Of a stretch of DNA of 45,243 nt, positions 1-45,243 are shown one piece after another (the stretch's first letter is position 1; the number at the start of each line of letters is the position of its first letter). The stretch comes from Escherichia phage vB_EcoS-CHD5UKE2. The stretch is from the sequence record NC_073059.1. The stretch is one strand, 5' to 3'. Under the pieces are notes generated by a model. That model had not been told where the DNA came from. It was given only the letters and a program-made list of their open reading frames with translations, and made no database searches. A program made the position numbers and the translations under genes.

Positions 1-127
1 CCCCCGTCTAGTCTGAAAGACTGGGAGTTGTCCCGCCTGTCCCGATCGGCTGAAACCCGCGGCAGCACTGACGGGGACGGGGTGCTGTCCCGCTTTGTCC
101 CGCCCCTTGTTTGTCCCGCTTTCTGTC
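1..127. repeat. Terminal duplication: identical to 45117..45243 (assembly overlap of a circular/permuted genome, or a short direct terminal repeat)
   Basis: Direct comparison of window start and end; 127/127 identical, both truncated by the window edges. Confidence 0.9.
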
Positions 128-300
128 CCGTTTGTTTTATGCACGAAATCTGAATAGGTATGCATATTTAGGGGGCGGGACAGATCGGGACGTCCCGCTT
201 GTCCCACTTTGAGTTTATGCAATGAAAGTGAGTAGATATGCAGTTTTACAGGGGGCGGGGCAAAACGGGACAGATCGGGACGTCCCGCTTGTCCCGCTTC
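1..300. repeat. Iteron-bearing structured element, copy A, 3' part: GTCCCGC direct repeats about one helical turn apart, inverted CGGGAC/GTCCCG palindromes, TTATGCA boxes
   Basis: GTCCCGC/GTCCCG at about 30, 39, 98, 108, 122, 191, 201, 281, 291; palindrome cgggacgtcccg at about 185..196 and 275..286; AT-rich spacers with TTATGCA. Confidence 0.8.
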
Positions 301-301
301 A

Positions 302-978
302 TTATGCGGGGTTTTGTTGCGCCATTTCGTCAAGCGCGATCCGTTCCATTAGCTTTATATCTTTAAATGCACGTTGCTCGTTTTCGATGCCGTGCATCTT
401 AAATAGCCACTCCAGAACTCCGTAGTCGATGCCGTATGCCCCACCGAATCCGGTGCGCCATTGCGTAGAGCAATCTGTGAAGACTGCGACTATCTTCGCG
501 TTGTCGGGCCATAGCGCAACAGACGGGCAAACATCTTCGGGGGCCGCGCCCCATAAACTTGCGGCTACATCTTCGGAGGGTGGCGGCGGGCCATAAAAGC
601 GTCGCGCCGCCTCAATTAGTTTTTTTCACGTAGTCCCATCAATTCGAGGTAGTACGAGGTGTGGAACACGCCGAACGCACGGGGGTAGTTGACTACCAGA
701 CGGCGGACGTTCTCAGCGTTAAATTGGTCTGGCAGATTCCAGCCTTCAGCGACGTGCATGATGGCCTCAACCATAACGTTAAAGCCGTCAGGGTCATTGT
801 CGTCATATTCCGATAGCTTGCGTTCGGTGTCCTGCATGGTCTGCGAAAACTCGTCGATCGGGCGGTGGCGGACGGTAAACGTCATCTTGCCTGGTTCGTT
901 CTCACCAGGGCGCGGGATCTCAATCGGCAGCTTAAAGGTCGGCTTAGGGTCAAGTGTGAAGAGTGGTGCTTTAGCCAT
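302..978 (-). CDS. Tail assembly chaperone -1 frameshift fusion product (gpGT-like); frame switches at 619..625
   Basis: Hand translation of the -1 frame from the heptamer gives 105 open sense codons (LIEAARRFYGPPPPSEDVAASLWGAAPEDVCPSVALWPDNAKIVAVF...LDEMAQQNPA) ending at TAA 302..304. Confidence 0.55.
616..978 (-). CDS. Tail assembly chaperone (gpG-like), frame-0 product
   Basis: Lies between major tail and tape measure genes; ATG at 978 with RBS GGAG 9 nt upstream (ORF-track start at 993 is a TTG); ends ...GLREKN-TAA directly on a slippery heptamer. Confidence 0.6.
   Translation of the reverse strand: MAKAPLFTLDPKPTFKLPIEIPRPGENEPGKMTFTVRHRPIDEFSQTMQDTERKLSEYDDNDPDGFNVMVEAIMHVAEGWNLPDQFNAENVRRLVVNYPRAFGVFHTSYYLELMGLREKN
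619..625 (-). other. Programmed -1 ribosomal frameshift slippery heptamer A_AAA_AAC with downstream stem-loop
   Basis: Heptamer is in X_XXY_YYZ register with the chaperone frame; 7-bp GC stem GGCGGCG (611..605) pairs with CGCCGCC (588..582), 16-nt loop, starting 8 nt after the heptamer. Confidence 0.55.
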
Positions 979-1000
979 TGTAATATTCTCCAATAAAAAA

Positions 1001-1017
1001 GGGGCCGTGCAGGCCCC
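1001..1017 (-). terminator. Rho-independent terminator after the major tail protein gene
   Basis: Hairpin ggggcc-gtgca-ggcccc followed on the minus strand by a T-tract (A-run 994..1000 on plus). Confidence 0.55.
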
Positions 1018-1047
1018 ATATTAACACTCGCTATTTAAGCGACCAAA

Positions 1048-1773
1048 TCAAGACAATGCCTCGACCAGATCCTTACGGTAGATAACCATATCAGACTGCA
1101 TGGTCAGAGTGGATTGTACCGTTTCCACGTTGTTTACTTCAGCGGACGGAATCTTCTGGAAAGATACCTTAGCCGGGTAAATACGAATTTCACCTTTTCC
1201 GCTTGCTGCCGCTGGGTTCGTGAACTTAATAACAGTGGTTTTCTGTGTATCGTCCAGGTCTTCCAGGATAGGGCGGATCGGGTCTTCTTCGTCGTGAGTG
1301 AAGGTGTAAGTCTGGACCAACGGGTTTTTCGTGGTGTTCAGACTGATCGCGGTGTTAACCTGCAACGGCTGGAAGGTAGTCGTCTGCTGGTCGCCACCAG
1401 AAACGGCAACGTTAGTGATAAACGGGAAGTCGATAAAGCTCGACACCTTCACCACTTCACCCGGAGTGCCTACGCCAAAAGCGCCGGTGGGATATTTGGT
1501 GACGTCTTCGGTGTCGAAGCGCGCCAGCGTCACGTCGGTAGTCGCCACTTTACCCACGATGAACGCGCGGTTCAGCGCACGGACCCACGGGGTTTTAGTG
1601 AACATAACCACGTCGCCTACTGCCAGGCCGTGGCCTTCCGCGCAGGTAATAACGCAACCAGTGGTAAGGTCGGAGATTGACGCGGTGGCGTTGGTAGCTG
1701 CCGTAACCGCGATGCCTGCGCCTAATACGGACCCAATCTGGACGCTGGACCCGTTAGGAAGTTGATAACCCAT
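1048..1773 (-). CDS. Major tail (tube) protein
   Basis: 241 aa; position immediately upstream of chaperone and tape measure; RBS AGGAG 8 nt before ATG 1773; terminator downstream. Confidence 0.55.
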   Translation of the reverse strand: MGYQLPNGSSVQIGSVLGAGIAVTAATNATASISDLTTGCVITCAEGHGLAVGDVVMFTKTPWVRALNRAFIVGKVATTDVTLARFDTEDVTKYPTGAFGVGTPGEVVKVSSFIDFPFITNVAVSGGDQQTTTFQPLQVNTAISLNTTKNPLVQTYTFTHDEEDPIRPILEDLDDTQKTTVIKFTNPAAASGKGEIRIYPAKVSFQKIPSAEVNNVETVQSTLTMQSDMVIYRKDLVEALS

Positions 1774-17640: not shown

Positions 17641-17850
17641 ATTATGCAATCCCGGATTTTATGCAGTCTCAGACGAGGGGGGCCAACTGACCCCCGTCTA
17701 GTCTGAAAGACTGGGGTTTGTCCCGCCTGTCCCGCTCCCTCGCAAGCCGCGTAATCCGGGGCGGGACAGGGGTGCTGTCCCGCTTTGTCCCGCCCCCTGT
17801 CTGTCCCGCTTTTTGTCCCGCTTACTTTATGCAATAAAACTGCATAACTA
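17641..17850. repeat. Iteron-bearing structured element, copy B, between primase-helicase gene and the start of the late operon
   Basis: Same conserved blocks and hairpins as copy A, divergent central spacer; followed by AT-rich tttatgcaataaaactgcataactattcactatatttacac. Confidence 0.8.
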
Positions 17851-29269: not shown

Positions 29270-29961
29270 TTATCTGGTCATTATTTGACGGCAGCGGCTT
29301 GATGATAGAGCGCGCTGCCGAGATGGGGCATAAATGCTACTGTTTCAACTACTCGGAAGCCGATCACGGGTCTTACCTTGACTACCGGATTTATGGTCGC
29401 GGTATCCGCTATCGTAACGAGTTTATCGATCTGGACTTCGTGGACCGCGCGATGAATGGCGATTTCGGCACGCCGGATATTATCTACGCGTTTCCGCCGT
29501 GTACGGATCTGGCGGTGAGCGGTGCGCCAGCTTTCCCGTGCAAGCGTGCGAAAGACCCCGCCTTTCAGCTTAAGGCAGTGCGCACCGCGAAGATTGCCGC
29601 TTACCTGGGTGACTTCTTTGAAGTGCCATATATGATTGAGAATCCGCGCAGTGTGCTATCCACCCAGTGGCGCAAGCCAGACCACTCGTTTGATCCGTGG
29701 GAGTATGGCGGCTATCTGCCGGAGGATGACGTACATCCGTTGTTCCCGGAATACATCAACGACCGCGATTCATATCCAAAGCTGACCTGTTTATGGGCTG
29801 GCAATGGCTTTCGTATGCCGGAGAAAAAGCCGGTATTCGTTGAAAAAGGGTACTCGAAGCAGTATAGTCGCCTCGGTGGCAAATCTGCCCGCACCAAATT
29901 AATACGGTCGCTCACTCCGCGCGGCTTCGCAATAGCAGTCAATGAGGAAAATTTAAAATGA
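29266..29961 (+). CDS. Short DNA (cytosine-5)-methyltransferase-like protein
   Basis: GTG start overlapping the helicase stop, RBS AAGGTG; motif I-like LFDGSG, motif IV-like FPPCTDLAVSG (catalytic Cys retained), motif VI-like MIENPR; only 231 aa. Confidence 0.45.
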   Translation: MIIWSLFDGSGLMIERAAEMGHKCYCFNYSEADHGSYLDYRIYGRGIRYRNEFIDLDFVDRAMNGDFGTPDIIYAFPPCTDLAVSGAPAFPCKRAKDPAFQLKAVRTAKIAAYLGDFFEVPYMIENPRSVLSTQWRKPDHSFDPWEYGGYLPEDDVHPLFPEYINDRDSYPKLTCLWAGNGFRMPEKKPVFVEKGYSKQYSRLGGKSARTKLIRSLTPRGFAIAVNEENLK

Positions 29962-31503: not shown

Positions 31504-31970
31504 AACTACTGATTTGTGATCTGGATGGCGTTATTAATGGTTCAAGTGATGCGCGTGCTGACCTGGTGCCCGGCATAAAAACCAAATCAACATTTTGGGC
31601 GAAGTGGCACAAAGCACACGTACGCGAAGACCTTAACATGGATATGTTGCCGCTGCTGCGCATGTACAAAGGGCAAGGCTTCGAGATAGCGTATCTGACT
31701 AACCGGCAGCGCGAATGCTGGGATACGACCGCCAAGCAATTGGAAGTATTCCCGACGGGCCGGTTGTTCATGCGCCACATGCTGGACGACACCCCACCGC
31801 CAGAATTTAAAGCATGCGCGGTGGTCAAAATGGTTTGCTATGCGGACGTGTCCGAACTGGTCATCATTGAAGACTGCGCTAAGAATATTGACGCCATCCG
31901 TCGGGCGTGCAGCGATATGGTCCCTAAAATTTATTCTATAAACGTAGCAAAATTTACTTGCAACCAATAG
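31500..31970 (+). CDS. HAD-superfamily phosphatase (possible nucleotidase)
   Basis: N-terminal LICDLDGVI (HAD motif I DxDG); 156 aa. Confidence 0.5.
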   Translation: MKLLICDLDGVINGSSDARADLVPGIKTKSTFWAKWHKAHVREDLNMDMLPLLRMYKGQGFEIAYLTNRQRECWDTTAKQLEVFPTGRLFMRHMLDDTPPPEFKACAVVKMVCYADVSELVIIEDCAKNIDAIRRACSDMVPKIYSINVAKFTCNQ

Positions 31971-42373: not shown

Positions 42374-45019
42374 TCATCGTTTGTAAAGTACTCCACCCGG
42401 TTTCGTCGCTTTCACGATCTCGGCCTTGACCGACTCGGTGATTTGCTTTCCGAACGCCTGCGCGGTGCGTGGGTCCGGTCCGCTCACACTGGTGTCCGTC
42501 TTACCGGTACCCATGTTCACGTTGGTTGTTACAATCATCCCACCCCCACCAGCACCGGCAGCGGCAACGCCCAGTTTCCCATCCGGCCCGCGCTTCAGTG
42601 GCATGATAGCCTCGGGTCCAGCCTCACCCATCAACCCAGCGCCCTTAGCGAACGCCTGAACGCCATAACTGAAAAAGGTGGGCTGGCTTACCACTTGACC
42701 AGAATAGGCCGCGAGATTGCCTCCTGCGTACGCTCCGCCGTCTGCGTTCTTAGTGAGGCCCGAGAAGATAGCGCCGAACAATCCGTTTTTGCCGCCGTCA
42801 CCGCCGAAAGCGCTAACGATGGATTTGAACGCCTGCGAGGTAGCCAGCTTGATTAATTCGCTCAGGATGGACTTAACCATATCCTTTGCGTTCAGCTTGC
42901 CCGTCTCGAAAAACGTATTCATCGTGTCCTGCATAGCGCCGAACGTGAATTTTGTGAGTGACGTCATCTGCGTGTAGCCGTTCCCCATTTCATCCACGCT
43001 ATCCTTAAGCCCGCGGCTAAAGCCATCCCACAACGAAGCGTTAGCACCGGTCTGTGCTTCCTGCACTTCGCGCAGCTTAGACACCGCCCGGTCAATATCA
43101 GTATCGTTAGCGCCGACACGCTGAAGGCGGTCAATTAGCTGTAATTCTTCGCGCAGGTTAGCCGCTTCGCGAGTGGAAAGCGCATAGCCCGCAGCGGTGG
43201 CCCGTAGCTCGGCGTTCTGGTTCTTGATGAATGCCTCGACCTGGGCGTGTGCCTTGATCTGCTTCTCTTTCGCGTCCAGCAATTTGGCTTCTTCGACGAT
43301 CTGCTCGCGTACCGCTTTAACCGCCTCGAACTCTGCCATTTGCTGCTTTTCTGCTGCCGTTAGTGTGCGTTCCTTGCTTGCTGCGACCATTTGCTCATTA
43401 TCCGCGACCAGCTTATTCAACGCGGCCTGTGCGCGCTGCGTGCGGGTCTGCGTTGTGGCATTGGCTTCGATCTGCTTGCCGGACTCCTTAAGCTGTGCCA
43501 GTTCGCTCCGCGCGACCTCCAGCATTTTAACACCGGCATCGACGCGAATTGCCGCCGCCTTTTTCGGTGCGGGGTCTTTGTAGCGCTCGTTGACCTGCTT
43601 CACCGCCTCGGCTAGTTCTTTCTCGTTAATCACACCGCGCTTATTCAGTAAATTGAGGCGGGCGATCTCGTCGGCGCGCTTCTTCGCGTTGGTGGCAAAT
43701 TCCTTCTCGAACGCGGCGCGGTCACGGGCGGTGCGGTTGGCCTCCTCGTTCGCCTTCGCTGATTTGTCCGCAGCGCTGGCGTTGTCGCGCTCGGCACGGT
43801 TACGCAGGGTGAGCGACGCTACTACTTTTTCCTGTGCGACCAGTTCGCTATAAAGCATGTTAATACGTGCTTTCTGCGCGTCGGTCATTACCCCACCGGC
43901 AGCGTTTACCGCTTTCATCTCAGCATAGTAAGCCGTGGTCATGCGCTGCAATGACTCACGCGCTTTCATCTCGGACTCATTCGATGACTGCGCGCGGCCC
44001 ACATCCAGGATGGCATCCCACATAGATTTAGCTGCCGATGTGACGACGTTCATCGACCGCTCAAGCGTACCCATGTTGGACTTGATCTCGTTGGTCATGC
44101 TGGTGAACGACGCCGCGGCTGTTTTGTTCGCCAGCGCCACCGCTTCGGTTTCGCGACCCGTCGTAACCAGTGACTGCACCTGCTGGATCTGCGCCTCGGT
44201 AACGACGTGATACTTGTCCGCCAGTGCGCGCAAGCCGCCCACCGGGTCGTTGGACAATTTGGAGATGGACTCCACCACGTCGGCGATCGGCTGATTAGAC
44301 ACCTTCGCGAAGTCGTTCACTACTTTCGCCAGCGCGCCGAAGTCAGCACCCGCTTTCACACCTGCCGCCGCCAGCGCCTGAATTGTGTCACGCGTCTTGC
44401 TGAATGAACCGCCCATTCGTTCGGCGTTCTCCGACAGCACCAGGATCTGGTTAGCGGTGAGGCCCGAGATGTTACCGGATAGCGCCAGCGTCTTGTTCAG
44501 CGCCGCTACCTGGTTTTCTGCGCGGGACGTAATAGCCACGCCTACGCCTAGCGTTGCCGTTACCGCAGCAAGGCCGATCCCTACCGGACCGAGAAAGCCA
44601 GCAACATAACGCAGCGTGTTACCCAGTCCACCGAATGCCCCGGTTAACTGCGGTAGCTGCTGAATCATGACGCGGTGCACCGGCATACCCATCTCGAGCG
44701 TGACCGCGATATCTTGTAACTGAAATGCGGCGTTACGCGATGCGAAGCCCAGGTTTTTGGTCGACATGCCTAAGCGGTTGGCAAGTCGCTCCTGCTTCGT
44801 CATGCCATCGGCGGCCCGCTGCGATTCAGTTGCCAGCTTCCCCATTCCGCCCGCGGCGTCACTCGTCACCTTTTTTGAGTTGCCGAGGGTGTCGTTTAAT
44901 TTCTTGACCTTGTTTTCGGTGTTTTCGGACTTCTGCGCGAATGAGTCCAGCACCGTATTCGCCGTTCTGATTTGTGCAACATCCGCCTTTAGCGTGATGC
45001 CTGCTGCTTGATCTGCCAT
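42374..45019 (-). CDS. Tail tape measure protein
   Basis: 881 aa, alpha-helical/coiled-coil-rich; Gly-rich hydrophobic C-terminal region; RBS GGGGA before ATG 45019. Confidence 0.7.
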   Translation of the reverse strand: MADQAAGITLKADVAQIRTANTVLDSFAQKSENTENKVKKLNDTLGNSKKVTSDAAGGMGKLATESQRAADGMTKQERLANRLGMSTKNLGFASRNAAFQLQDIAVTLEMGMPVHRVMIQQLPQLTGAFGGLGNTLRYVAGFLGPVGIGLAAVTATLGVGVAITSRAENQVAALNKTLALSGNISGLTANQILVLSENAERMGGSFSKTRDTIQALAAAGVKAGADFGALAKVVNDFAKVSNQPIADVVESISKLSNDPVGGLRALADKYHVVTEAQIQQVQSLVTTGRETEAVALANKTAAASFTSMTNEIKSNMGTLERSMNVVTSAAKSMWDAILDVGRAQSSNESEMKARESLQRMTTAYYAEMKAVNAAGGVMTDAQKARINMLYSELVAQEKVVASLTLRNRAERDNASAADKSAKANEEANRTARDRAAFEKEFATNAKKRADEIARLNLLNKRGVINEKELAEAVKQVNERYKDPAPKKAAAIRVDAGVKMLEVARSELAQLKESGKQIEANATTQTRTQRAQAALNKLVADNEQMVAASKERTLTAAEKQQMAEFEAVKAVREQIVEEAKLLDAKEKQIKAHAQVEAFIKNQNAELRATAAGYALSTREAANLREELQLIDRLQRVGANDTDIDRAVSKLREVQEAQTGANASLWDGFSRGLKDSVDEMGNGYTQMTSLTKFTFGAMQDTMNTFFETGKLNAKDMVKSILSELIKLATSQAFKSIVSAFGGDGGKNGLFGAIFSGLTKNADGGAYAGGNLAAYSGQVVSQPTFFSYGVQAFAKGAGLMGEAGPEAIMPLKRGPDGKLGVAAAGAGGGGMIVTTNVNMGTGKTDTSVSGPDPRTAQAFGKQITESVKAEIVKATKPGGVLYKR

Positions 45020-45243
45020 TATGCAGTCCCCTTTTTTTTTATGCAGTTGCCGATTGACATTGTATCAGCGAATTTCAAACAAACCTTATTCAGTCTCAGA
45101 CGAGGGGGGCCATTAACCCCCGTCTAGTCTGAAAGACTGGGAGTTGTCCCGCCTGTCCCGATCGGCTGAAACCCGCGGCAGCACTGACGGGGACGGGGTG
45201 CTGTCCCGCTTTGTCCCGCCCCTTGTTTGTCCCGCTTTCTGTC
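45020..45243. repeat. Iteron-bearing structured element, copy A, 5' part (continues at 1..300 across the wrap); lies between tail chaperone and tape measure genes
   Basis: Blocks shared with copy B at 17664..17822: cagtctcagacgaggggggcca, acccccgtctagtctgaaagactggg, ttgtcccgcctgtcccg, ggggtgctgtcccgctttgtcccgcccc, tgtcccgcttt; TTATGCAG boxes at about 45047 and 45057. Confidence 0.8.

What the first reader, a model, noticed from the sequence alone, without database searches (positions are those of the whole stretch)
302..978. Programmed -1 frameshift (A_AAA_AAC plus downstream stem-loop) making a G/GT-type tail chaperone fusion, absent from the ORF track
The 120-aa chaperone-position gene ends on a slippery heptamer in correct register immediately before its stop. 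The -1 frame is then open for 105 codons with protein-like composition, ending at TAA 302..304 just where the repeat block begins. A 7-bp GC stem-loop starts 8 nt after the heptamer. This is the conserved G/GT strategy of lambda-like tails, implemented with a different heptamer. The fusion product is then separated from the tape measure gene by about 400 bp of element A.
Basis: partly seen in the sequence, partly recalled or inferred. Interest (0 to 1): 0.5.

Follow-up and report, generated by a model that had tools for sequence, protein, structure and literature searches.

The report
Tail chaperone G/GT -1 frameshift site
This is the ordinary programmed -1 ribosomal frameshift that long-tailed phages use to make a small amount of an extended tail-assembly chaperone, here in an HK578-like (Dhillonvirus) E. 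coli phage whose database records mostly fail to annotate it.

Summary
The window is a whole Dhillonvirus genome. The 120-aa gene at 978..616 (minus strand) is a Phage_TAC_4 chaperone lying between the tail tube and tape measure genes. It ends ...GAA AAA AAC TAA. The heptamer A_AAA_AAC (625..619) is in register. The -1 frame is closed by TGA just before it (628..626) and then open for 105 codons to TAA 304..302. That stretch encodes a DUF1799 domain and has no usable start codon.

In 20 distinct Dhillonvirus sequences the -1 frame varies mainly at third codon positions (23/9/70 variable sites), so it is coding. Of 84 related loci, many at about 40% identity, 83 keep the -1 arrangement and 81 keep AAAAAAC directly before the stop. 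Phage T1 has the same site, and Citrobacter phage Sazh has it already annotated as a frameshift product.

A -17 kcal/mol hairpin starts after a 7-nt spacer. It lies in the most synonymously conserved stretch of G+T. There is no covariation, and in this window it is no more stable than synonymous recodings.

Verdict: a real but ordinary G/GT frameshift, a new member of a known kind. One correction: the expected junction is ...EKN-LIEAAR..., not ...EKK/L.... Virions are also the wrong sample for detecting it.

The parts
616..978 (-). G-like tail assembly chaperone gene (120 aa, 13.96 kDa). ATG at 978, stop TAA at 618..616.
   Evidence: Pfam PF08748 Phage_TAC_4, E=3.7e-23, full length. PHROG 569, E=8e-40. 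Lies between the tail tube gene (1773..1048, PF08813) and the tape measure gene (45019..42374). Variable sites by codon position are 11/6/79 in 20 Dhillonvirus sequences.
988..991 (-). Shine-Dalgarno GGAG, 9 nt upstream of the G start codon.
   Evidence: Read directly from the sequence.
619..625 (-). Slippery heptamer A_AAA_AAC in zero-frame register (codons gaA AAA AAC). Proposed site of the -1 shift.
   Evidence: Invariant in 20 distinct Dhillonvirus sequences. These are the last 7 nt before the stop in 81 of 84 related loci, in L107-L113, and in T1 and Sazh.
616..618 (-). Zero-frame stop TAA directly after the heptamer. It terminates G and may itself help the shift (a 'shifty stop').
   Evidence: A stop (TAA or TGA) directly follows the site in all 83 loci with the -1 arrangement. 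The overlapping -1 frame Leu codon is always CTA or CTG, never CTT or CTC.
626..628 (-). TGA stop in the -1 frame immediately 5' of the heptamer. It confines any productive shift to the heptamer.
   Evidence: It is not conserved in all relatives, whose overlaps range from 10 to 211 nt.
582..611 (-). Predicted RNA hairpin. A 7-bp GC core (GGCGGCG/CGCCGCC) extends to 11 pairs at -17.1 kcal/mol, after a 7-nt spacer (618..612).
   Evidence: in the lowest-energy 5% of 50-nt windows in a Dhillonvirus locus with the same 50 nt. The heptamer plus hairpin is the least synonymously variable 15-codon window of G+T (2 of 15 sites against 66% overall; permutation P=0.003). No covariation. Not more stable than synonymous recodings in this window (P=0.30), but clearly so in relatives.
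302..619 (-). T-like extension read in the -1 frame. 105 codons (LIEAARRFYGPPPP...QQNPA) plus stop TAA 304..302. Carries a DUF1799 domain.
   Evidence: Pfam PF08809, E=1.1e-20. PHROG 680, E=2e-30, and the C-terminal half of the 213-position fusion-length PHROG 17368. Variable sites by codon position are 23/9/70. No start codon until 31 codons from the end. Invariant TQWR..G..G.DY motif across five lineages.
302..978 (-). Whole GT fusion coding region. The predicted product is 225 aa and 25.6 kDa, with junction ...LREKN-LIEAARR...
   Evidence: Inferred from the anatomy and from comparative data. The protein was not observed.

Best explanation
Ribosomes translating the chaperone gene (978..616, minus strand) mostly stop at TAA 618..616 and release the 120-aa G-like chaperone. 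A small fraction slip back one nucleotide on A_AAA_AAC (625..619), read CUA next, and continue for 105 codons to TAA 304..302. This yields a 225-aa GT-like fusion whose C-terminal DUF1799 domain has no other route to expression.

By analogy with lambda gpG/gpGT, many G copies and a few GT copies would coat the tape measure protein, and the T domain would recruit the tail tube protein. Neither would end up in the virion.

Shown here:
- the sequence anatomy;
- the coding status of the -1 frame;
- family-wide conservation of the heptamer-plus-stop site.

Inferred:
- that slippage occurs, and how efficiently;
- which stimulators act (the hairpin 7 nt downstream and/or the adjacent stop codon);
- the assembly role of the products.

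Two sub-mechanisms give the same protein (...EKN-LIEAAR...) and are not distinguished. One is tandem P/A-site slippage of tRNA-Lys and tRNA-Asn. The other is P-site slippage of tRNA-Asn while the stop codon sits in the A site.
For: - Position and families: tail tube PF08813, chaperone PF08748, -1 ORF PF08809, tape measure downstream.
- The two frames overlap by only 10 nt, bounded by TGA 628..626 and TAA 618..616. The -1 ORF has no start codon for its first 74 codons.
- Third-position-dominated variation in the -1 frame (23/9/70 variable sites), much like G itself (11/6/79).
- 83 of 84 related loci keep the -1 relation and 81 of 84 end G on AAAAAAC plus stop, although the downstream sequences differ greatly. 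Relatives with about 60% identity, T1 and Sazh do the same.
- The Ralstonia phage relative has G_GGA_AAC plus TGA at the same spot, followed by LIEAARR. Slipperiness is kept while the sequence differs.
- GenBank annotates joined 'frameshift product' CDSs for the homologous genes of Sazh and Sweeny.
- PHROG 17368 is a 213-position profile of fusion length. G matches its positions 1-107 and T matches 148-212.
- A_AAA_AAC is a proven natural -1 site in E. coli (IS1; PMC4066793).
- Hairpin: canonical 7-nt spacing, synonymous-site conservation, and excess stability over synonymous recodings in relatives (P=0.0035, 0.002, 0.019 and <0.0005).
Against: - No protein evidence exists.
- In E. coli reporters A_AAA_AAC is a weak shifter: 0.16% alone, 0.19% with the IS911 stimulator and 0.74% with the IS3 pseudoknot, against 39% for A_AAA_AAG with the IS3 pseudoknot (PMC4066793, Table S3). 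The yield may therefore be far below lambda's roughly 1:30 unless the adjacent stop or the hairpin helps.
- In this window the hairpin is no more stable than 30% of synonymous recodings made with the phage's own codon usage. No compensatory changes were found. Phage Rtp lacks a comparable hairpin.
- HK578 and SO-1 annotators treated the -1 ORF as a separate gene.
Confidence: 0.88

Rival explanations
1. The DUF1799 ORF is a separate gene. It would be translated by independent or termination-coupled initiation at a non-canonical codon, namely the ATT at 616..614 whose first base is the last base of the G stop, as annotated for gp16 of HK578 and SO-1. The product would be a free T protein of about 104 aa and no fusion.
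For: HK578 and SO-1 GenBank records annotate it this way. T1-like records annotate separate CDSs with GTG or ATG starts further in. The large protein collection holds G and DUF1799 ORFs only as separate products.
Against: - No ATG, GTG or TTG in the first 74 codons, and no Shine-Dalgarno sequence before ATT.
- The codon at that position is ATT, ATC, ATA, AAA or AGG in relatives, so it is not conserved as an initiator.
- The annotated internal starts differ between relatives and cut into conserved sequence.
- What is conserved is the slippery heptamer in register, plus the -1 relation, in 81-83 of 84 loci.
Confidence: 0.05
2. The fusion is made by transcriptional slippage. RNA polymerase would add one extra A in the A7 run (626..620), putting G and T in frame on a minority of mRNAs. 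The junction would then read ...REKK-LIEAARR...
For: The window and most relatives have seven consecutive A residues. One prophage copy (L032) carries A8 in its DNA and so encodes an in-frame fusion, which shows that the run is prone to indels.
Against: - T1, Sazh, Rtp and IME347 have only six A residues (GT/GC AAAAAAC).
- The Ralstonia relative has GGGGAAAC with no long homopolymer.
- What is conserved is the heptamer in codon register.
- From my own knowledge, productive slippage in bacteria generally needs runs of about nine or more.
- L032 also carries a second frameshift at a G5 run, which suggests sequencing error or decay.
Confidence: 0.05
3. The -1 ORF is not expressed at all. On this view it is a fossil or chance open frame, and G alone is the chaperone.
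For: Reporter efficiency of A_AAA_AAC in E. coli is close to background without strong stimulators.
Against: - Strong third-position bias of substitutions in the -1 frame.
- A Pfam domain at E=1e-20.
- Conservation of the ORF and its motifs at 30-37% identity across phages of E. coli, Klebsiella and Ralstonia.
Confidence: 0.01

Closest known systems
Phage lambda gpG/gpGT (Levin, Hendrix & Casjens 1993; Xu, Hendrix & Duda 2004, 2013, 2014; cited through PMC5009743)
   Same: Two ORFs lie between the major tail and tape measure genes. The second is in the -1 frame without its own start. A slippery heptamer sits at the 3' end of the first ORF. The expected outcome is a minority fusion product that acts as an assembly chaperone.
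   Different: - The heptamer is A_AAA_AAC, not G_GGA_AAG.
- From my own knowledge, lambda's site lies a few codons before the G stop. Here the stop directly abuts the site.
- The proteins hit other Pfam families (Phage_TAC_4 and DUF1799), and no lambda similarity was seen.
- About 400 nt of repeat-rich non-coding DNA separates GT from the tape measure gene.
Phage T1 gp40/gp39 and Drexlerviridae relatives, including Citrobacter phage Sazh ('Tape measure chaperone frameshift product', NC_048065) and Klebsiella phage Sweeny
   Same: These relatives were found with the window's own G and T proteins by tblastn and align with them over both parts (30-40% identity). T1, Sazh, Rtp and IME347 have the identical A_AAA_AAC-plus-TAA site and the same -1 relation. 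T1, Sazh and IME347 also have a GC-rich inverted repeat that can form a hairpin about 6 nt downstream (folded only for IME347). A terminator sits between the tube gene and G in T1 and Sazh too.
   Different: - In T1 and Sazh the tape measure gene follows the T stop closely, with a terminator annotated in between.
- Rtp lacks a convincing hairpin.
- Weberviruses (Sweeny, VAC10) have GCA AAA GTT TAA with no canonical heptamer.
IS1 insA/insAB' -1 frameshift in E. coli (Sekine & Ohtsubo; Escoubas et al. 1991; through PMC4066793)
   Same: The same heptamer A_AAA_AAC works in the same host at low efficiency. A weak site is used deliberately to keep the fusion product scarce.
   Different: The proteins are unrelated (a transposase). 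No stimulator is established for IS1. From my own knowledge, the stop does not directly abut the site.
Acinetobacter phage Loki gp12/gp13 (PMC5313236) and Edwardsiella phage eiAU ORF23/22 (PMC3025963)
   Same: [quoted passage not shown]
   Different: These are different phages. I did not compare their sequences with the window.

Membership tests
G/GT-type tail assembly chaperone with programmed -1 frameshift (Xu, Hendrix & Duda 2004) | The gene pair lies between the major tail (tube) gene and the tape measure gene, on the same strand. | tested here: met
   Tube 1773..1048 (PF08813), G 978..616, T 619..302, tape measure 45019..42374 across the circular junction.
G/GT-type tail assembly chaperone with programmed -1 frameshift (Xu, Hendrix & Duda 2004) | The second ORF overlaps the 3' end of the first, is in the -1 frame, and lacks its own initiation signals. 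| tested here: met
   10-nt overlap. No ATG, GTG or TTG for 74 codons and no Shine-Dalgarno sequence.
G/GT-type tail assembly chaperone with programmed -1 frameshift (Xu, Hendrix & Duda 2004) | A slippery X_XXY_YYZ heptamer lies in zero-frame register within the overlap. | tested here: met
   A_AAA_AAC at 625..619. It is a proven -1 site in E. coli IS1, but weak in reporters (PMC4066793).
G/GT-type tail assembly chaperone with programmed -1 frameshift (Xu, Hendrix & Duda 2004) | The two-frame arrangement and the slip site are conserved among diverged relatives. | tested here: met
   83 of 84 loci keep the -1 relation and 81 of 84 have AAAAAAC plus stop. A Ralstonia relative has G_GGA_AAC instead.
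G/GT-type tail assembly chaperone with programmed -1 frameshift (Xu, Hendrix & Duda 2004) | The -1 extension is under purifying selection as a protein. | tested here: met
   Variable sites by codon position are 23/9/70 over 105 codons in 20 sequences. DUF1799 at E=1e-20.
G/GT-type tail assembly chaperone with programmed -1 frameshift (Xu, Hendrix & Duda 2004) | The G part has the fold of experimentally solved tail assembly chaperones. | tested here: inconclusive
G/GT-type tail assembly chaperone with programmed -1 frameshift (Xu, Hendrix & Duda 2004) | A fusion protein is made in vivo at a low fixed ratio to G, and both are needed for tail assembly. | not testable with these tools
   Requires infected-cell proteomics, western blots and phage genetics.
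-1 PRF signal with a 3' stimulatory RNA structure (dnaX / IS911 / IS3 type) | A stable stem-loop or pseudoknot begins 5-9 nt after the heptamer. | tested here: met
   7-nt spacer and a -17.1 kcal/mol hairpin. Relatives at about 60% identity have hairpins of -20 to -30 kcal/mol that fold after a 2-7-nt spacer, and their conserved GGCGG stem core sits 7 nt after the heptamer. IME347 has -20 kcal/mol at 6 nt.
-1 PRF signal with a 3' stimulatory RNA structure (dnaX / IS911 / IS3 type) | The structure is selected for beyond the needs of the encoded protein. | tested here: inconclusive
   For: this is the least synonymously variable 15-codon window of G+T (P=0.003), and the hairpin is more stable than synonymous recodings in L109, L111, L112 and IME347. 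Against: the window itself gives P=0.30, no pairs show compensatory change, and Rtp has no hairpin.
Pfam PF08748 Phage_TAC_4 / PF08809 DUF1799 | The score exceeds the curated gathering threshold. | tested here: met
   82.5 bits against a cut-off of 21.1, and 74 bits against 26.

The most novel reading that the evidence does not exclude
The family-wide pairing of a heptamer that shifts poorly in E. coli (A_AAA_AAC, under 1% in reporters) with a stop codon placed directly after it (all 83 loci with the -1 arrangement) may not be incidental. It could be a distinct 'shifty-stop' -1 signal. Slow termination at UAA or UGA, with tRNA-Asn in the P site, would give the time for slippage. The G:GT ratio would then depend on release-factor activity (RF2 alone at the UGA sites of 67 of the 84 loci) as much as on the hairpin.
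Probability: 0.25. Interest if true: 0.4.

Novelty: new member of a known kind. Interest (0 to 1): 0.15.

Why it matters
The main value is for annotation. None of the Dhillonvirus records inspected in full carries the 225-aa fusion. In those and other listed records the -1 ORF is missing, split into small 'hypothetical proteins', given an ATT start, or labelled 'tape measure protein'.

The comparative result may also help people who study recoding. The site is one conserved signal: A_AAA_AAC, then an immediate stop, then usually a GC-rich hairpin a few nucleotides on (most clear at 6-7 nt in the Dhillonvirus-like and T1-like clades). It is shared by HK578-like phages, T1-like phages and many enterobacterial prophages. 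It is a natural case in which a heptamer that scores near background in E. coli reporter assays is nevertheless strictly kept.

It does not change what is known about tail assembly.

Tried and rejected
- Protein database search with the fusion gave 2 hits. Search with a five-lineage alignment gave 13 hits. None was a full-length fusion, so this gave no direct record of the product.
- PDB sequence search with the family profile: no match.
- Foldseek of the G model against the PDB: nothing significant.
- Rfam on window 1..1100 at E<=1: only sub-threshold chance matches and no frameshift element.
- Covariation tests of the hairpin, in the Dhillonvirus-like set and in the largest prophage clade: no compensatory pairs.
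- Dinucleotide-shuffle z-score of an 81-nt stretch: -0.73, uninformative.
- L032 looked like a natural in-frame G-T fusion, which would have been independent support. It has A8 instead of A7 and a second frameshift at a G5 run further on. It is best read as sequencing error or a decaying prophage.
- Other in-register heptamers with long -1 continuations (29949..29958 on the plus strand, 31955..31949 on the minus strand) lie next to overlapping ORFs that have their own start codons, an ATG at 29958 and a TTG at 31967. I read them as ordinary gene overlaps, without further checking.
- An upstream Shine-Dalgarno-like stimulator was considered. Only GGG lies 9 nt upstream, inside the conserved Met-Gly codons, so no claim is made.
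- Literature searches for a description of this frameshift in Dhillonviruses found none. The nearest is the eiAU paper.

Full report
**What the window is.** The 45,243-nt window is a complete genome of an HK578-like E. coli siphophage (genus Dhillonvirus).
- The first 2.3 kb match 157 phage records at 80-97% identity.
- The finding's own 677 nt are 100% identical to phages vB_EcoS_WF5505 and vB_EcoS-101114BS4.
- The first and last 127 nt of the window are identical, so the contig is a circular assembly of 45,116 nt.
- The late genes lie on the minus strand. In order they are the tail tube gene 1773..1048 (Pfam Phage_tail_3), the gene under study 978..616, the -1 ORF down to 302, a repeat-rich gap, and across the junction the 881-aa tape measure gene 45019..42374.

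**Checking the observation.** Every sequence statement holds.
- The 120-aa gene starts at ATG 978, with GGAG 9 nt upstream, and ends ...CGT GAA AAA AAC TAA.
- A_AAA_AAC occupies 625..619 in the X_XXY_YYZ register. TAA 618..616 follows directly.
- Read from the C at 619, the -1 frame is open for exactly 105 codons to TAA 304..302.
- The -1 frame is closed by TGA 628..626 just before the heptamer. The two frames therefore share only 10 nt, and a productive shift can happen nowhere else.
- The -1 ORF has no ATG, GTG or TTG until 31 codons from its end. This explains why a start-to-stop ORF list omits it.
- GGCGGCG (611..605) pairs with CGCCGCC (588..582) after a 7-nt spacer. The minimum-energy fold extends the stem to 11 pairs at -17.1 kcal/mol.
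- The gap to the tape measure start is 398 nt.

**Is the -1 frame a protein?** Yes.
- The extension matches Pfam DUF1799 (E=1e-20), and the upstream gene matches Phage_TAC_4 (E=4e-23).
- Both match tail-category PHROGs.
- Both also match opposite halves of PHROG 17368, a 213-position profile of fusion length.
- In 20 distinct Dhillonvirus sequences, variable sites by codon position are 11/6/79 in G and 23/9/70 in the -1 frame. That is the signature of purifying selection on that frame.
- Across five lineages at 30-37% identity the motif TQWR..G..G.DY is invariant.

**Is the slip site conserved?** Strikingly so.
- I analysed 84 related loci: 80 from IMG/VR, found with a five-lineage profile, plus four GenBank phages. 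[quoted passage not shown]
- In 81 the last seven nucleotides before the stop are AAAAAAC. The stop is TGA in 66 and TAA in 15.
- These loci include clades about 40% identical, whose downstream nucleotide sequences bear no resemblance to the window.
- Metagenomic relatives at about 60% identity have the same site. So do phage T1 and Citrobacter phage Sazh.
- Ralstonia phage YO005_1 has G_GGA_AAC TGA at the same position, followed by the same LIEAARR peptide. The sequence has changed, but the slippery pattern and its register are kept.
- The stop directly after the site is kept in all 83 loci with the -1 arrangement. The overlapping -1 Leu codon is always CTA or CTG, never a codon that would remove the stop.
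- The next -1 codon varies (ATT, ATC, ATA, AAA, AGG) but always begins with A.
- The exception is the weberviruses (VAC10, Sweeny), which have GCA AAA GTT TAA and no canonical heptamer.

**The hairpin.** The evidence is mixed, so I rate this part as partly supported.

For a role:
- The spacing is canonical.
- The 50 nt after the heptamer fall in the lowest-energy 5% of 50-nt windows in a Dhillonvirus locus with identical sequence there.
- The 15 codons starting at GAA AAA AAC and running through the hairpin form the single least synonymously variable window of the 225 codons. Only 2 of 15 third positions vary, against 66% overall (permutation P=0.003).
- Relatives at about 60% identity have stronger hairpins built on the same stem core 7 nt after the heptamer (-20 to -30 kcal/mol). 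Several synonymous differences lengthen the stem.
- Those hairpins, and that of T1-like IME347, are more stable than synonymous recodings: P=0.0035, 0.002, 0.019 and <0.0005, with one non-significant case at 0.15.

Against:
- In the window itself, 30% of recodings made with the phage's own codon usage fold as well. The amino acids EAARR...GPPPP largely dictate a GC-rich inverted repeat.
- No base pair shows a compensatory double change, either in the Dhillonvirus-like set or in the largest prophage clade.
- Rtp has no comparable hairpin.

**Mechanism.** The best-supported reading is -1 ribosomal frameshifting on A_AAA_AAC, giving a 14.0-kDa G and a 25.6-kDa GT.
- On the standard model the A-site tRNA-Asn has already decoded AAC before the slip. 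If the slip instead happens with tRNA-Asn in the P site and the stop in the A site, the result is the same. Either way the junction is ...LREKN-LIEAARR..., with diagnostic tryptic peptide NLIEAAR.
- In E. coli reporters A_AAA_AAC gave 0.16% frameshifting without a stimulator, 0.19% with the IS911 stimulator and 0.74% with the IS3 pseudoknot. A_AAA_AAG gave 39% with the IS3 pseudoknot (PMC4066793, Table S3).
- A_AAA_AAC is nevertheless the proven natural site of IS1.
- So either GT is needed at a very low level, or the adjacent stop codon and the hairpin raise the yield. The first idea echoes the 'shifty stops' of Weiss et al. 1987, cited in PMC5009743. This is inference and is untested.
- The functional role (G and GT coating the tape measure protein, with the T domain recruiting the tube protein) is taken from lambda (PMC5009743). 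It is not tested here.

**Rivals.**
- Independent initiation of the DUF1799 ORF. HK578 and SO-1 annotate gp16 with an ATT start, and T1-like records use various internal starts. This is unlikely: there is no start codon or Shine-Dalgarno sequence, the codon at that position is not conserved as an initiator, and the slip site is what is conserved.
- Transcriptional slippage on the A7 run. This is unlikely because T1-like phages have only six A residues and the Ralstonia relative has GGGGAAAC, while the codon register is kept.
- A non-expressed ORF. This is excluded by the substitution pattern.

**Comparison with what is known.** This is the G/GT strategy of lambda, with a different heptamer and unrelated Pfam families.
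- The closest described cases are its own homologues in the T1 group, which share the identical site. GenBank already carries a joined 'Tape measure chaperone frameshift product' for Citrobacter phage Sazh, and a joined 'tail assembly chaperone frameshift product' for Klebsiella phage Sweeny, whose site differs.
- The paper on Edwardsiella phage eiAU, a relative of Dhillonvirus SSL-2009a, notes the conserved frameshift between its major tail and tape measure genes (PMC3025963).
- None of the Dhillonvirus records I inspected annotates the fusion (feature names). I found no paper describing it for the genus.

**Verdict.** The feature is real and functional with high probability, but it is an ordinary, expected feature of a siphophage tail module. 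It is a new, mostly unannotated member of a well-known kind. The one mildly interesting point is the strict family-wide conservation of a heptamer that is weak in E. coli together with an abutting stop codon.

Noticed in passing
window 1..301 and 45020..45243 (minus strand; 45117..45243 duplicates 1..127): The 398-nt gap between the GT stop and the tape measure start is non-coding and packed with GCGGGAC / CGGGACGTCCCG direct and inverted repeats. There are 8 copies of GCGGGAC in 1..300. The SO-1 GenBank record labels this 'region A'. HK578 and WF5505 annotate a terminator in it, about 15 nt after the GT stop (roughly window 288..266).
   Followed up: partly
window 17720..17821: A second cluster of 7 GCGGGAC motifs, the 'region B' counterpart of region A. 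The whole window holds 25 copies against 8.3 expected, and no shuffle reached 25.
   Followed up: no
window 995..1017 (minus strand): A strong intrinsic terminator (GGGGCC-TGCAC-GGCCCC followed by T6) lies between the tail tube stop and the chaperone ribosome binding site. T1 and Sazh have an annotated terminator in the same place. This suggests that chaperone and tape measure expression is set below tube expression by partial termination.
   Followed up: partly
window 1..127 and 45117..45243: The window ends are a 127-nt exact direct repeat. This is an assembly overlap of a circular or circularly permuted genome, so the true length is 45,116 nt.
   Followed up: yes
L107 2174..2554; L109 2174..2922; L111 2162..2335: In metagenomic relatives at about 60% identity, the same gap between GT and the tape measure gene holds one or two opposite-strand ORFs (126, 123 and 57 aa, no Pfam hit) instead of the repeat block. 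This position seems to be an insertion hot spot.
   Followed up: no
L032 1515..1535 and about 1745..1755: A prophage-derived IMG/VR contig has A8 instead of A7 at the slip site, which fuses G and T in frame. It has a second frameshift at a G5 run further on. This is either homopolymer sequencing error or a decaying prophage.
   Followed up: partly
L024 and L115 (Klebsiella weberviruses VAC10 and Sweeny), end of the chaperone gene: These homologues keep the -1 DUF1799 ORF but end the chaperone gene with GCA AAA GTT TAA. There is no X_XXY_YYZ heptamer anywhere in the 97-nt overlap. Even so, Sweeny's record annotates a frameshift product. Their shift site is unclear.
   Followed up: no
GenBank/RefSeq annotations of Dhillonvirus and T1-like phages: Automated annotation often labels the 120-aa chaperone and the DUF1799 ORF as 'tail length tape measure protein' (the PHROG 569 and 680 descriptions), or labels the chaperone 'major tail protein'. 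These names are wrong for these small proteins.
   Followed up: no
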